DNA of 64,000 nt. Source: the human T2T-CHM13v2.0 reference genome, Homo sapiens. This document shows, one piece after another, positions 11,780 through 16,800 of this stretch. The stretch lies in assembly GCF_009914755.1 (NCBI RefSeq), contig NC_060927.1; one strand, given 5' to 3'. Each line of letters opens with the position of its first letter. Position 1 is the stretch's first letter. The position numbers and the translations under genes are program-made. The notes under the pieces were generated by a model. That model saw only the letters and a program-made list of their open reading frames with translations. It was not told the origin of the DNA and searched no databases.

Positions 11780-13905
11780 AATACCTACATTTGTGAGGTA
11801 AACATCTGGAAACAGGACCTGCTCATTAAATTGGATGGGGGTGTCAGGCCAAAAGCAGATAGAAATGTTGATGGACAGTATTTGGTCAGAAAAGAAAAAT
11901 GATTTTTTGAGTTATCCCCCAGCCCCCTTTTCTGAGTAGACAGCTGCAGGAGGAGAAGGAAGGTATGGAAGTGGAAAAGACTATTCAGTGCAGGAGGTGA
12001 CATCCTAGCACATCAGTCCTGGGTACCGAGAAGCTGCAATAGCACCAGTAGCAAAATGAAGCATCCTCACTCTCACAGCAGAGGACTAGTACAAAGAGGC
12101 AGATAAATCTACCAGAATTCAGTCTCCCTACTAGATGTGTTATGGATGGCTAGGGCCACTTATGGAAATTTCTAGGACTATAACCTATTAGGTCAAAGTC
12201 AACTAAATGAGTGAAAATGATAGGGATCTAGAAATTTAATTCACAACAACACTGGCCAGAAGGGAAAGATCTTCAGTTCAACCTTGGTGCTGGAAAAGCT
12301 GTGGTAAAGGGTAATCGAGAAAAGAAAATAATTAAAATTAGCAAATCAATCTCATTTTGAGCAGCAACACAGGCATTCTCAAACTTAAAATTCAGAAGCT
12401 TAAGAGTGCATGAGACACTTGGAGAACTGACCCCTTTCTCTCATTTCTCCCAAATAATAAATATTACCCCAGAGAAAGCAAAAGCAGCAACGTTAGAAGC
12501 TTGTGGGACCAAGTATAAGAACTAGTAGCTGTGTCCCAGCACAGTCCTTGATGGGTGGCATTGCTGTGGATATAGACCTGGAATCAAGTCTACGGCATAG
12601 AAACTTTTGTAAGTATGTGTGGCCTGATGGTTTTTCCTCTCCCCATAGTACTACTTGATTTTCTTTATTTCCCTCCACCCCAATAAAAAAAAAGAAAGAA
12701 ACAAGACTTAGTCAGTCACTCTGAACTTTTCTTTCCACTAGAGATGTAGGGAAATTCCAGTGAAGTCTGCATCATCTGTAATGCTAGGGAATCTACCCTC
12801 TTATAATCAGGAATAAGAGGAACTGGAGATTACAATGGGAATATCAAAAAGTTACCTTAGGAGTATAACAGTGGAAAATCCCTGCCTCTCCTAAAAATAG
12901 GCTCAACCTAAATCTGTTGCCTTTACCCTCGGGAACTATAGACCATCCCAGAAATTAAATGGGAAGAAAGGTCATGCCATATAAAACTGGATAAATACGA
13001 TGTCTATGTACTTTTACAGTTAACATCTGATCTACCAAAATTGAGTTTGGGTAAAATAAGCTTGTCCTAACAGGAACATTATTATGGTACTAAAATCCCC
13101 TAAAGAGATTGTAAAGTCCTATCCAGGAAGCAGTTATGTGATATGTCCTATATACCAGATTTGGTGGTAGTGAAAGGATAACTCTCTTTTCATCTTGTAG
13201 CACACCATGGCCGCCACTAAGAGATATTTAGTCACACCAAACATGTCTAATGTATAATGCCTAATCAAATATGGAGAAAAAAAAAAGAAAATAATCCCTA
13301 AAAACACCCATGTCCTAGAAACACCCATGACCTGAGCCTAGTATTCTTGCATTTTGTGATTTCTTTAGCATCTGAGCAGACAAAGAGGTTAACATGAAAA
13401 CTGAAGTCAATCCCTACATGCCTGGCTTGTGGGATGTGCCCAAGGGGAGCAGCATACCATCATGTTAAATGGCTCAAGGGCATTTCTGGAACAATCTAGG
13501 AGGATTGCTTTTTGTGGCAGATTAATGACCTAAGGGATCGTCTTGAGGAACTGTTGGTTAATAGGATCATTACTGAATCATAGCCCATATGCTTCTCCAA
13601 TTGCGATAGTGAGAAAGGAGACTAGAAAAAATTGAAAGTATGTGCATTATTATACCATTAATTGTTGAATTAGGAGTGATCAATAGCTGTTTGTAAAAAC
13701 ACCTAGAGTTCACCTTGCTAGATTTGCAGAATGGCTATTGCCAGATAGCAGTTACAGCTGATGAGGATAAAGATAAGTGAGCTTTTTTTTATCTGACCAG
13801 CAAGATTTCATCTACTTGAGATTATACATCAGGGTCCCTAAGGAGGCCCTCCTGTCAACCCACAGTGGAAAAGGTTGTTTGTGACAGAAGCTAGTTCAAG
13901 GATAC
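11780..13905 (+). mobile_element. Fossil Ty3/Gypsy internal region (MamGyp-int-like): PNMA-like gag, protease, RT
   Basis: Frameshifted translations: LDVLWMARAT (12131), KAVVKG (12295), ANQSHFEQ (12341); VGCAQGEQHTIML (13429), DLRDRLEELLVNRIITES-SPYASPIAIVRK (13527-13617), FTLLDLQNGYCQIAVTADEDKDK*AF (13709), VEKVVCD (13865). Confidence 0.85.
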
Positions 13906-13999
13906 TCTCCCCTTCATCTGAAACACCTACAGTTTCTTGAGGGGATAGGTGAATTGCTTCTCACCTGTGTGTTAATAAAGGCCCTGCCACTCAGGTAAC

Positions 14000-14780
14000 A
14001 GATGATGTCCATGTCTCACCCATATCTTCTCAGGGTTCACCTCTAAGCTGAAGACTGGTCACTATGAATAAACACAATTCTCTACTGGATGTTTTTATTT
14101 TGTTTTGTTTTGCTTTGTTTTTGGCTTGGTAGCACAATAGCCATGCTACCAAGGCAAGACAAAAGTGATAGGAGTTAATGTGTCTAGAGGCAGGCCTCAA
14201 CTGATAAAGGATCCTCACCTTTTTTTGAGATACTTCTAAGATAGGGTCTATCCAGACAGCAGAGTTCTCTGATAGCATTGAGCTCCAGTTCCTCACAGTC
14301 AGAACTTGCTTGATAATTTGCCCTCTATTGGCCGTTTTTTTTTTTTTTTTTTTTTTTTTTGCCTTTCTTACATCACTTCTTATGGACCATCTCCTCCCCA
14401 AAATGCGTATGTTGAAACTCTATCTTCCAATATGATGGCATTAGGAAGTGGGGCCTTTGGGAATTAGTTAGGATTAGCTGAGATCATGAGGAAGATGCCC
14501 TCAAGGATGGTATTATTGCCCTTATAAGAGTCCCAAGACAACTTGCTTCTCTCTTCTCTCCATGATGTGAGGATACAATGAGAAATCAGCAGTCTGCAAC
14601 AAGGAAAAGGACCCTCACCAGAGCCCGACCATGCTGCCATTTTGATCTTGGATTTCTAGCCTATAGATATGTAAAAAATAAATTTCTATTGTTTATAAAC
14701 TACTCAGTCCGTAGTATTTTTCCAATAGCAGCCTGAGATGAGTAAGGCACTTCCCTACACTCCTACTAGGATCACCTTCC
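14000..14780 (+). mobile_element. LTR16-like (ERVL) LTR fragment interrupted by MLT1A
   Basis: acttgcttgataatttgccctctattggc...cacttccctacactcctactaggatcacc. Confidence 0.5.
14379..14749 (+). mobile_element. MLT1A-type MaLR solo LTR
   Basis: ggaagtggggcctttgg...gccctcaaggatggtattattgcccttataag...gatcttggatttctagcc...atagcagcctga. Confidence 0.85.
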
Positions 14781-14887
14781 TCCTTCCTCTACCTTGTCTT
14801 ATCATCATCTTTTTCCCTAACTATGGGAAAAGGGGGAATAGGAGCTCAAATCTATAGCCCGTGGGCCCATTAAAAACTTGTTACTCG

Positions 14888-15195
14888 GGCCGGGTGTGGT
14901 GGCTGACGCCTGCAATCCCAGCACTTTGGGGGGCCGAGGCGGGTGGATCATGAGGTCAGGAGATCGAGACCATCCTGGCTAACACAGTGCAACCCCATCA
15001 TTTTGTAACAATACAAAAAAAAAAAAAAATTAGCCGGTCGTGGTGGCAGACGCCCGTAGTCCCAACTACTTGGGAGGCTGAGGCAGGAGAACCCAGGAGG
15101 CAGAGCTTGCAGTGAGCAGAGATCGCACCACTGTACTCCAGCCTGGGCGACAGAGTGAGACTCTGTCTCAAAAACAAACAAACAAACAAACAAAA
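14888..15195 (+). mobile_element. AluY/AluSc-like
   Basis: gagatcgagaccatcctggctaac diagnostic; (AAAC)n tail; TSD cttgttactc. Confidence 0.93.
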
Positions 15196-15208
15196 ACACT
15201 TGTTACTC

Positions 15209-15670
15209 TAAGTTTGGTCCTTAACATCACCTGAGAGCTTGTTAGAAAAGCAGAATCTCAGGCCAGGCGCGATGACCTACGCCTGTAATCCCAGCACTTT
15301 GGGAGGTCAAGGCGGGTGGATCACCTGAGGTCAGGAATTCGAGACCAGCCTGGACAACATGGTGAAACCCCGCCTACTAAAAAAATACAAAAATTAGCCA
15401 GGCGTGGTTGTGCACGCCTGTAATCCTAGCTACTCAGGAGGCTGAGACAGGAAAATCGCTTGAACCCAGGAAAGGGAGGGTGCAGTGAGCTGAGATCACG
15501 CCACTGCACTCCAGCCTGGGTGACAGAGCAAGACTCTGTCTCAAAAAAAAAAAAAAGAGAAAAAAAACAGAATCTCAGACCCCACCCAGACATACTGAAT
15601 AGAGGCCTGCATTGTTTAAAGCCAGATTGCCAGGTAATTCACATGCATGTTACTAGTTGAGTGTTACTGT
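15209..15670. mobile_element. MER5A-like DNA transposon split by an Alu
   Basis: catcacctgagagcttgttagaaaagcagaatctcag...ccccacccagac...ggtaattcacatgca. Confidence 0.75.
15261..15565 (+). mobile_element. AluSx-like
   Basis: Full dimeric Alu; TSD cagaatctca(g) on both sides. Confidence 0.93.
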
Positions 15671-15843
15671 CGTCAGAACACAGGGCTGTGTTCTTTTGGA
15701 GGAGAAGGAAGCTTTATTTCTATTAGCGGATCTTAGCAGCTGCAGCTGTCTGCATGATTGTACAGTGTATACTGCTATGTCAAGTAACCCAAAGAGAAGC
15801 CCCAGAATTTCCCTTTATTGAGGTTGTCTGGGGGTAAGTGAAA

Positions 15844-16400
15844 TGTTATCAGTTGCCAGCAGATATAATATGCTGTCAATGCCTTCCAGCCAAAGACCAT
15901 CAGGAACAAATGTAGTTGAACAAGTTGGGCTTATTACTCATTGCCTCGAGAGAATGTACATCATGGGGACTCCTTGGTATCTCAGTAAAAGACTTAAAGG
16001 ATTTGGGCTATGGTTGAGAGATTTTTGAGGAGGGTCTAGTGAAGTAGGGCTTTCCTATGAATTAGGAGCTTTAACAACGCAGGGATAATTTTATAATTGG
16101 GTATCTCAATAAATCTTGTTTATAGAGAAGGCAGAGTGAACTGAGGCTAAAACTATAATTGGAAAAAAACACACACACATGCACAGTGGTCATTCATATT
16201 AGTCAAAGAGAGATACTTAGTATTTTGTGGCTTGGACAATGTTCATGCTTTGTGTCCAGACATAATTTTAGAACTGTCTTTGTTTTGATCAATTATGGTC
16301 ACAGAATGGTCTTATCATATGTTGAGGTTCTATGAAATTGTTTCTGTTCACAAGAGGACGTAAGTCCTAGATGTGAGTGACAAACCAGCTGGTAACACCA
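15844..16400. mobile_element. ERV-class solo LTR, subfamily not determined
   Basis: tgtta...taaca termini; LTR-like body (aaagaccatcagg, gaacaagttgggcttattactc). Confidence 0.5.
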
Positions 16401-16469
16401 TCAAGAGCTTGCTGAAGAGAGTCTTATTTATCGTGCAAAAAAAAAAGTCTAAGGTTAAAAAAATACCAA

Positions 16470-16800
16470 AGTTGATTATTGGACATTCCTGAGCTTCAGC
16501 CAAGCAGAACAAGTCGAATATTCAGCTAGATTAGAGAAGAGATTTTGAAATTTAGCTACTGCAAAAAAAGTGGGGGGGTTCCTGTGACTGGATTATGAAA
16601 ATCTAAAATCATTCTAATTTATGGTTAAAACTTCATAAATGGAAGTTTCAATCAAACTTGATGGAATATATTCAGGATAATGCAGGCAAACCTAAAGGGC
16701 CAGTTGAAGCCAATATGTGGGACGCCTGGTATAAACTCACTCCTCCACTAGAGATTATAGTACTATGTGCACCCTCATTTTTTTTCAGTGTTCTGAATAT
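16470..16800 (+). mobile_element. Fossil Ty3/Gypsy integrase core (continuation of the element at 11780-13905)
   Basis: IQLD*RRDFEI*LLQ (16520; cf. IHSDQGRDFES), FNQT*WNIFRIMQANLKGQ-SQYVGRLV (16646-16731; cf. FNRTLLNMLGTL..K..WSQ.V..LV). Confidence 0.75.

What the first reader, a model, noticed from the sequence alone, without database searches (positions are those of the whole stretch)
11780..16800. Fossil Ty3/Gypsy retrotransposon with PNMA-like Gag, protease, RT and integrase in colinear order
Seen: hand translation of the + strand across frameshifts gives four domains in order. (i) A capsid resembling PNMA/MOAP1 proteins: W..Q..IEML.W...SEK near 11832-11895, LDVLWMARAT at 12131, SENDRDL at 12210, KAVVKG at 12295 and ANQSHFEQ at 12341 (PNMA motif KAVEKG...ANQARLEQ). 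(ii) A weak protease region: KLVGPS at about 12497 and a D-x-G-like site at about 12575. (iii) RT: VGCAQGEQHTIML..F.EQSRR, LEELLVNRIITES-SPYASPIAIVRK, FTLLDLQNGYCQIAVTADEDKDK*AF, VEKVVCD. (iv) Integrase at 16520-16731. Known: RT-before-IN is the Ty3/Gypsy order; the group is inactive in mammals; PNMA genes derive from Gypsy gag. Inference: one ancient element, probably related to Dfam MamGyp-int and the PNMA donor lineage, later split by LTR16, MLT1A, two Alus, MER5A and an ERV LTR. None of this appears in the ORF track.
Basis: partly seen in the sequence, partly recalled or inferred. Interest (0 to 1): 0.8.

Follow-up and report, generated by a model that had tools for sequence, protein, structure and literature searches.

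The report
Decayed Gypsy reverse-transcriptase fragment, nothing more
About 380 bases of this human chr3 stretch are a real but dead remnant of the reverse-transcriptase gene of an ancient Ty3/Gypsy retrotransposon, an ordinary and already catalogued kind of genomic fossil, while the claimed capsid, protease and integrase parts cannot be told from chance.

Summary
Part of the finding holds. Window 13405-13786 (+) encodes, across 3 frameshifts and 2-4 stops, the N-terminal third of a Ty3/Gypsy reverse transcriptase. It is 41% identical (48 of 116 codons) to living deuterostome Gypsy Pols. Frameshift-aware scores are 91-101 against 34 +/- 4 for 200 dinucleotide shuffles. tblastn gives E = 4e-7. 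A Pol profile scores 54.5 against 22.2 +/- 3.2, and 0 of 300 genomic controls reach it.

The match is specific. Human ERV pol pieces score at most 40 and chromovirus-type Gypsy Pols 29-45.

The rest is not supported:
- **PNMA-like gag:** 17.6 against 17.5 +/- 2.4, with 135 of 300 controls at least as high. The same test detects 19 of 19 genuine human PNMA-gag fossils.
- **Protease, remaining RT plus RNase H, and integrase:** all score at background.

So this is one truncated RT relic, most likely what RepeatMasker labels LTR/Gypsy (MamGyp-int or a sister family). I could not test that label without Dfam. The family, and its link to PNMA genes, are already in print. Interest is low.

The parts
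13405..13786 (+). Fossil N-terminal part of a Ty3/Gypsy reverse transcriptase. It corresponds to aa 334-467 of reference Pol P0190: 66 residues ahead of Pfam RVT_1 plus about the first third of RVT_1, ending at the KTAF motif. It is broken by 3 frameshifts, 2-4 in-frame stops and a deletion of about 10 codons.
   Evidence: Frameshift-aware alignments score 101 (P0223), 94 (P0190) and 91 (P0199), against 34 +/- 4 (max 56) for 200 dinucleotide shuffles each. The Pol profile scores 54.5, and 0 of 300 genomic controls reach it.
13405..13521 (+). First readable piece (frame of 13405). It matches the stretch just ahead of RVT_1, with the pattern LG..T.V.H.I.L....PF....RRIP in living Pols.
   Evidence: tblastn with P0190 covers 13405-13620 at E 5.7e-7, and P0199 covers 13417-13620 at E 4e-7.
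13518..13580 (+). Second piece, read in the frame of 13518 (reached by a frameshift): the helix ahead of the SP.ASP motif.
   Evidence: tblastn HSPs at 13518-13580 with P0188, P0117, P0200 and P0113. The frameshift was placed by the aligner.
13576..13680 (+). Third piece, back in the frame of 13405: the SPYASPIAIVRK motif and the decayed ...C.DYR.LN... stretch, with stops at 13633-13635 and 13666-13668.
   Evidence: tblastn with P0142, P0156, P0145 and P0188 up to 13680. P0101 and P0102 match 13582-13662 at 48-52% identity.
13697..13786 (+). Fourth piece, in the frame of 13697: RT motif A region (F..LDL..GY.QI) through KTAF, with a stop at 13778-13780. The detectable homology ends here.
   Evidence: tblastn at 13709-13786 is 46-58% identical to P0199, P0101, P0102, P0130 and P0103. 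All 21 Pols that scored at least 70 and were kept for end their alignment at 13786.

Best explanation
Window 13405-13786 (+) is a dead, truncated relic of the pol gene of an ancient Ty3/Gypsy (Metaviridae) LTR retrotransposon that inserted in a distant ancestor and has decayed neutrally since.

What survives is the start of the reverse transcriptase: the fingers and the first palm motif, with the first catalytic Asp position still readable in LLDLQNGY. The active-site YxDD motif, thumb, RNase H and integrase are not there. The piece can encode nothing and does nothing today.

Its nearest living relatives are Gypsy Pols of fish, frogs and echinoderms. One of them (P0199, sea cucumber) carries a PNMA-type gag. 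This fits the mammalian fossil family that Repbase and Dfam call MamGyp-int, or a sister LTR/Gypsy family.

- **Shown:** RT homology, its extent, its breaks, and its specificity to this Gypsy clade.
- **Inferred:** ancient insertion, neutral decay, loss of the 3' part by deletion or rearrangement, and the family label.
For: - **tblastn:** of 464 HSPs with E <= 1 from 135 Gypsy Pols, 249 lie at 13000-14000 +. Best E values are 4e-7 and 5.7e-7, with colinear pieces in shifting frames.
- **Frameshift-aware scores:** 91-101 against shuffles at 34 +/- 4, and 0 of 200 shuffles reach them. 111 of 135 Pols score at least 50.
- **Tile scan:** P0101 and P0102 score 61 and 62 on tile 12001-14400 +, against 32-49 on the other tile-strands outside the ERV tile.
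- **Pol profile:** 54.5 against 22.2 +/- 3.2, and 0 of 300 controls reach it.
- **Specificity:** 91 ORF pieces from 28 human ERV pol loci score at most 40. Chromovirus-type Pols P0091-P0100 score 29-45.
- **Reference domains:** P0190 RVT_1 at 400-560; P0199 PNMA at 29-174 and RVT_1 at 638-798.
- **No intact reading frame:** stop-to-stop ORFs here are at most 42 aa.
- **Literature:** MamGyp-int is the human Gypsy internal family (Repbase review PMC5753468, passages). The PNMA2 ORF is described as the Gag part of an ancient MamGyp-int (bioRxiv 10.1101/2023.02.09.527862, passages).
Against: - No curated model sees the fragment. Pfam RVT_1 gave nothing on whole frames or on 67 stop-to-stop pieces. 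PDB sequences, which should include Ty3 RT (recalled), gave nothing.
- No second copy was found in the human genome by DNA or by the window's own peptide. Membership of a repeated family is therefore not shown here.
- The MamGyp-int label rests on inference, because no Dfam or Repbase consensus was available.
- No LTRs, primer-binding site or target-site duplication were looked for.
Confidence: 0.85

Rival explanations
1. One reading: the whole of 11780-16800 is one colinear Gypsy element (PNMA-like gag, protease, RT, integrase) split by younger repeats.
For: - The RT piece is real and on the + strand.
- In P0199 the PNMA gag lies 404-549 residues ahead of the RT match.
- Two weak colinear PNMA matches exist: MOAP1 aa 226-262 at 12156-12266 (E 17) and PNMA1/PNMA2 aa 254-297 at 12242-12364 (E 10-23).
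- Gag and protease evolve fast and could have decayed beyond protein-level detection.
- Two Alus do interrupt the region.
Against: - **Gag, pairwise:** 10 human PNMA proteins give a mean of 33.7 against 33.0 +/- 2.1, and 22 of 60 controls are at least as high.
- **Gag, profile:** 17.6 against 17.5 +/- 2.4, with 135 of 300 controls at least as high. The same profile scores 26.7-222 on 19 of 19 human PNMA-gag fossils.
- **Whole-window gag scan:** tiles at 11-13 kb score 17.6-19.6, against an overall mean of 18.0.
- **Protease/upstream:** 246 of 300 controls are at least as high as the target.
- **Rest of RT plus RNase H:** 239 of 300.
- **Integrase at 15590-17100:** 256 of 300.
- **Pairwise searches:** the upstream and downstream parts of 24 Pols land at scattered, inconsistent places with background scores.
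- The Pol profile does detect the much more distant ERV pol at 48.9 kb (76.5). A Gypsy palm, RNase H or integrase of the same age as the surviving RT piece should therefore have been seen.
Confidence: 0.1
2. The RT likeness is a chance product of reading three frames with free frameshifts.
For: Pfam and PDB searches were blank.
Against: - My aligner allows the same freedom (frameshifts, stops, gaps). It gives z = 14-17 against 200 dinucleotide shuffles.
- 0 of 300 real genomic controls reach the target.
- Ordinary tblastn, without frameshift freedom, gives E = 4e-7.
Confidence: 0.01
3. The fragment comes from another class of reverse-transcribing element (endogenous retrovirus, BEL/Pao, DIRS), not from Ty3/Gypsy.
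For: Human DNA is full of ERV pol. A search of the genome with the matching Gypsy RT stretch returned 150 listed matches (E 7e-8 to 6e-4), mostly with long open frames, which I read as ERV pol. An ERV pol lies in this same window at 48.9-49.5 kb.
Against: - 91 pol ORF pieces from 28 human ERV loci score at most 40 on the fragment, against up to 101 for Gypsy Pols.
- Every reference that scores well carries the Gypsy-type domain set RVT_1, RT_RNaseH_2, RT_RNaseH, Integrase_H2C2 and rve.
- BEL/Pao and DIRS references were not tested.
Confidence: 0.03
4. The fragment is part of a domesticated, still functional gene or exon.
For: Gypsy-derived host genes exist in the human genome. PNMA genes, RTL1 and NYNRIN were all found.
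Against: - There are 2-4 stops and 3 frameshifts within 382 bases, and the ORFs are at most 42 aa.
- The hub's RefSeq table lists only RPL8P4 in the window, with no gene or functional element here.
- The catalytic core is missing.
Confidence: 0.01

Closest known systems
MamGyp-int (and sister LTR/Gypsy internal families of Repbase/Dfam such as MamGypsy2-I)
   Same: An ancient mammalian Ty3/Gypsy fossil of the pol region, highly decayed. The family's gag is the published source of PNMA2, and one of the three best-scoring RT relatives of this fragment (P0199) carries a PNMA-type gag.
   Different: Only about 380 bases of RT are recognisable. No LTR of the MamGypLTR type was identified.
Living deuterostome Ty3/Gypsy Pols (P0223, P0199 and P0188 from Holothuria leucospilota; P0111 from Labeo rohita; unnamed P0190 and P0222)
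   Same: 41% identity over 116 aligned codons of the RT N-terminus, colinear, with the same motifs (SP.ASP..V.KK, F..LDL.SGY.QI, KTAF).
   Different: Those are intact 1100-1400 aa Pols with RT, RNase H and integrase. The window keeps about 130 codons, broken by stops and frameshifts.
Human PNMA family (PNMA1-6, MOAP1, ZCCHC12/18; Pfam PF14893)
   Same: Both trace back to Ty3/Gypsy elements.
   Different: No PNMA-like sequence is detectable in the window. The PNMA genes are intact 350-650 aa ORFs elsewhere in the genome.
Endogenous retrovirus pol (for example the fragment at window 48926-49537)
   Same: A reverse transcriptase relic on the + strand of the same window.
   Different: It is a different class. 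It covers the palm (YIDD) and connection region and is far better preserved (E 4e-6 to distant Gypsy queries). ERV pol pieces do not match the 13.4-13.8 kb fragment.

Membership tests
Ty3/Gypsy (Metaviridae) LTR retrotransposon | RT sequence closer to Ty3/Gypsy RTs than to other RT classes | tested here: met
   Scores reach 101 with Gypsy Pols, against at most 40 with 91 human ERV pol pieces. tblastn E is 4e-7. BEL/Pao and DIRS were not compared.
Ty3/Gypsy (Metaviridae) LTR retrotransposon | pol domain order PR-RT-RNase H-IN (RT before IN) | tested here: not met
   Only the RT N-terminus was found. PR, the rest of RT plus RNase H, and IN are all at background: 246, 239 and 256 of 300 controls score at least as high as the target. 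Pairwise searches gave the same result. The order therefore cannot be read from this copy.
Ty3/Gypsy (Metaviridae) LTR retrotransposon | Flanking long terminal repeats, primer-binding site, target-site duplication | not tested
   No LTR consensus was available, and two LTRs of this age would be too diverged for the repeat finder.
MamGyp-int (Repbase/Dfam) | Nucleotide match to the family consensus or HMM | not testable with these tools
Own-genome DNA searches found only the locus itself.
PNMA-type Gag (Pfam PF14893) | Match to the PNMA capsid domain | tested here: not met
   Pfam found no hit. The profile test scores 17.6 against 17.5 +/- 2.4, with 135 of 300 controls at least as high. The positive control scored 19 of 19 fossils. 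In the whole-window scan the 11-13 kb tiles are at the mean.
Retroviral-type integrase (rve, Integrase_H2C2) | Match to the zinc-binding and DDE core domains | tested here: not met
Pfam found no hit.
Reverse transcriptase, Pfam RVT_1 | Score above the Pfam gathering threshold | tested here: not met
   No RVT_1 hit at E <= 10 on frames or pieces. The fragment covers only about the first third of the model and is split over three frames.

The most novel reading that the evidence does not exclude
More of 11.8-13.4 kb than I can detect belongs to the same insertion, including a gag of the PNMA-donor type that has decayed beyond protein-level recognition. This locus would then be a long 5' portion (gag to early RT) of a MamGyp-type element, traceable with nucleotide HMMs and orthologous copies.
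Probability: 0.12. Interest if true: 0.2.

Novelty: already known. Interest (0 to 1): 0.1.

Why it matters
It matters little. Fossil Gypsy fragments are a catalogued minor component of mammalian genomes. The family's link to PNMA genes is published, and the family names are routine RepeatMasker labels.

The useful result is methodological. Hand translation across frameshifts found a true RT relic. With equal apparent conviction it also produced three other 'domains' that do not survive controls.

Tried and rejected
**Searches that found nothing**
- Pfam on whole frames with X at stops and on 67 pieces. The only hits were unrelated chance families (E 0.024-0.25 on 4 pieces).
- PDB sequence searches with two window pieces: nothing related.
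- Word-indexed protein search with a window piece: 15 candidates, none scored.
- Own-genome searches with window DNA or peptide: only the locus itself.
- Own-genome scans with PF14893, PF17919 and PF17921. The window is not among the listed hits. Only the best 40 or 150 candidates are scored, and the last two scans returned long lists that I take to be mostly ERV pol.
- Own-genome scan with a 160-aa stretch of P0190: 150 matches that I read as ERV pol, no Gypsy fossils recognisable, and no loci could be cut.
- RTL1 and NYNRIN as references: too diverged, nothing in the region.
- blastn of 11001-17500 against 30 PNMA gene and fossil loci: the strong matches are the two Alus and one other interspersed repeat at 14565-14690. 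The rest are short matches with E >= 0.004. None lies in 11780-12400.

**Weak hints downstream of 13786**
- 13885-13950 resembles the ..F..GY..IA.PL..L motif, and 14244-14333 resembles the W..EC..AF..LK..L...P.LA motif of the connection domain.
- The second sits about where an uninterrupted RT would put it.
- Scores (up to 37 and 48) do not exceed controls. The mean over 20 Pols is 29.6 against 28.8 +/- 2.2. The profile test is negative, also with cheap long gaps. I rejected these as unsupported.

**Other isolated matches**
- Integrase-like tblastn matches at 15858-15983 + (E 3.3), 12608-12670 + (E 1.1) and 23242-23364 - (best E 0.027 among 135 queries). They are isolated, partly non-colinear, and not significant after multiple testing.
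- PNMA N-terminal-like match at 35251-35403 - (E 0.22). The profile scan does not confirm it.
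Full report
**What is in the sequence.** The window is human T2T chr3:177134001-177198000 (hub note; confirmed). Between 11780 and 16800 there is no long reading frame. 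Stop-to-stop ORFs are mostly 30-80 aa. The question is therefore whether the strings mean homology.

**Curated models see nothing.**
- Pfam hmmscan of the three + frames of 11701-14102 and 15601-17102, read through with X at stops, gave no RVT_1, rve, PNMA or protease family at E <= 1.
- A scan of all 67 + strand stop-to-stop pieces of at least 20 aa gave only unrelated chance hits on 4 pieces (E 0.024-0.25).
- PDB sequence searches with two window pieces were blank or chance.
- The window's own DNA and peptide find only themselves in the human genome.

**Getting proper references.**
- Human PNMA genes were taken from the genome with PF14893. This gave 11 intact genes and 19 broken copies among 36 matches.
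- True Ty3/Gypsy Pols were obtained in two steps. RTL1 used as a query gave P0091-P0107. P0101 used as a query gave 5767 proteins at E <= 1e-20 among 8000 scored, of which the best 120 were listed.
- Where named, these are fish, frog and echinoderm Gypsy Pols.
- Two of them (P0126 from Phyllobates, P0199 from Holothuria) also carry a PNMA-type gag domain.

**The RT fragment is real.**
- tblastn of 135 Pols against the 64-kb window gave 464 HSPs with E <= 1. Of these, 249 lie at 13000-14000 on the + strand, 148 lie at 48500-49500 + (an unrelated ERV pol), and 67 are scattered.
- The best are P0199 (13417-13620 plus 13709-13786, E 4e-7) and P0190 (13405-13620, E 5.7e-7).
- I wrote a local protein-to-DNA aligner that allows frameshifts, stops and gaps. 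It joins the pieces into one alignment: P0190 aa 334-467 against 13405-13786.
- Scores are 101 (P0223), 94 (P0190) and 91 (P0199). Dinucleotide shuffles of 13301-13900 give 34 +/- 4 (max 53-56), and 0 of 200 reach the target, so z = 14-17.
- In the P0223 alignment, 48 of 116 aligned codons are identical. There are 3 frameshifts, 2-4 stops and a gap of about 10 codons.
- 111 of 135 Pols score at least 50.
- In a tile scan of the whole window on both strands, P0101 and P0102 score 61 and 62 here. Elsewhere they score 32-49, except on the ERV tile.
- A profile of 61 Pols scores 54.5, against 22.2 +/- 3.2 for 300 random window segments. None reaches it.
- According to Pfam on the references, the fragment equals 66 residues ahead of RVT_1 plus about the first third of RVT_1, ending at KTAF.

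**It is Gypsy-type, not ERV.**
- 91 pol ORF pieces from 28 human ERV loci score at most 40 on the fragment.
- The chromovirus-type Gypsy Pols P0091-P0100 score only 29-45, while P0108-P0225 have a median of 59 and a maximum of 101.
- The fragment therefore belongs with the deuterostome Gypsy clade around P0101, P0199 and P0223.

**Nothing else of pol is there.**
- The parts of 24 Pols upstream and downstream of the RT match were aligned to 11001-13404 and 13787-17500. They give background scores at scattered, mutually inconsistent places.
- Profile tests used 300 controls each:

| Part tested | Target score | Controls (mean +/- sd) | Controls scoring at least as high |
|---|---|---|---|
| Rest of RT plus RNase H, on 13787-14340 | 21.9 | 24.2 +/- 2.9 | 239 of 300 |
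| Protease/upstream, on 12401-13404 | 14.2 | 15.5 +/- 1.6 | 246 of 300 |
| Integrase, on 15591-17100 | 21.9 | 24.1 +/- 2.3 | 256 of 300 |

- The whole-window profile scan shows peaks only at 12-14 kb +, at 48-50 kb + (ERV) and a small one at 55-57 kb +.
- The profile picks up a distant retroviral palm and connection region at 76.5. A Gypsy palm, RNase H or integrase of the same age as the surviving piece should therefore have been visible. I infer that the copy is truncated, or was rearranged, at about 13786.
- Two weak connection-domain-like motifs at 13885-13950 and 14244-14333 do not exceed controls.

**The PNMA-like gag is not supported.**
- tblastn of 10 human PNMA proteins gives nothing better than E = 8.1 in 11600-12700. 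The + strand, colinear pieces (PNMA2, MOAP1, PNMA1) have E 10-23.
- Frameshift-aware pairwise scores average 33.7, against 33.0 +/- 2.1 for 60 controls. 22 of the 60 are at least as high.
- A profile of the 10 PNMA proteins plus two Gypsy gag parts scores 17.6 on 11701-12450, against 17.5 +/- 2.4. 135 of 300 controls are at least as high.
- The same profile and aligner score 26.7-222 on the correct strand, and 15-22 on the wrong strand, of all 19 broken PNMA-like copies in the human genome. That includes those with Pfam E between 0.3 and 2.
- In a scan of the whole window, the 11-13 kb tiles score 17.6-19.6, against a mean of 18.0.
The region may still derive from the same element, but the sequence gives no evidence for it.

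**Surroundings.**
- Two Alu copies lie at about 14887-15195 and 15243-15570. They are 67-84% identical to Alu copies in about 15 unrelated loci. The name Alu is from recall.
- Another interspersed repeat covers about 14565-14690.

**What is known, and verdict.**
- The Repbase review (PMC5753468, passages read) lists MamGyp-int with MamGypLTR1a-d, 2, 2b and 2c as the human Gypsy family. [quoted passage not shown]
- The PNMA2 preprint (10.1101/2023.02.09.527862, passages read) states that the PNMA2 ORF corresponds to the Gag part of an ancient MamGyp-int.
- A full-text search found 23 papers using MamGyp, MamGypLTR or MamGypsy2 labels. Judging by the titles and abstract openings listed, most are TE-expression studies.
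- The object is thus a single truncated RT relic of a known kind. Whether RepeatMasker already labels this exact spot could not be checked here.
- Scores: observation partly confirmed; interpretation partly supported; novelty already known; interest low.

Noticed in passing
window 48926-49537 (+): A well-preserved retroviral-type pol fragment: RT palm with a YIDD motif plus the connection region, with one stop. It matches 17 of 17 first-round Gypsy Pol queries at E down to 4e-6 and scores 76.5 with the Pol profile. NYNRIN also hits 49199-49510. It is an endogenous retrovirus unrelated to the finding.
   Followed up: partly
window 55297-55425 (+), tile 55001-57000: A small Pol-profile peak (37.6 against a background of 24-34) and a tblastn match containing ...[12 protein letters not shown].... 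From recall this looks like LINE-1 ORF2.
   Followed up: no
window 14887-15195 and 15243-15570 (+): Two Alu elements in tandem orientation, 67-84% identical to Alu copies in about 15 unrelated loci. A T-run at 14334-14362 and another interspersed repeat at about 14565-14690 (73% identical to L031:1198-1323) lie just upstream.
   Followed up: partly
window 23242-23364 (-): Eight Gypsy Pols give a weak match to the stretch just after the integrase core (best E 0.027 among 135 queries). The target is leucine-rich, and the match is not significant after multiple testing. If real, it would be a second Gypsy scrap in the opposite orientation.
   Followed up: no
window 35251-35403 (-): Five human PNMA paralogs (aa 53-112, the N-terminal domain) give weak tblastn matches (E 0.22-1.8). 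The gag profile scan does not confirm them (15.8-21.9).
   Followed up: partly
human genome, L013-L031 (for example C23:107841639-107841995, C7:117103607-117103819, C17:52309933-52310187): Nineteen broken PNMA-capsid-like loci with stops inside, besides the 11 intact PNMA-family genes. All 19 are recovered by the frameshift-aware gag profile. They are probably scattered gag fossils or PNMA pseudogenes.
   Followed up: partly
proteins P0199 (Holothuria leucospilota) and P0126 (Phyllobates terribilis): Predicted proteins that combine a PNMA-type gag domain with Gypsy RT and RNase H. In P0199 the order is gag then RT. In P0126 the PNMA hit (552-660) lies after a first RT/RNase H, and two RT stretches are reported, so that gene model may merge two elements.
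   Followed up: no
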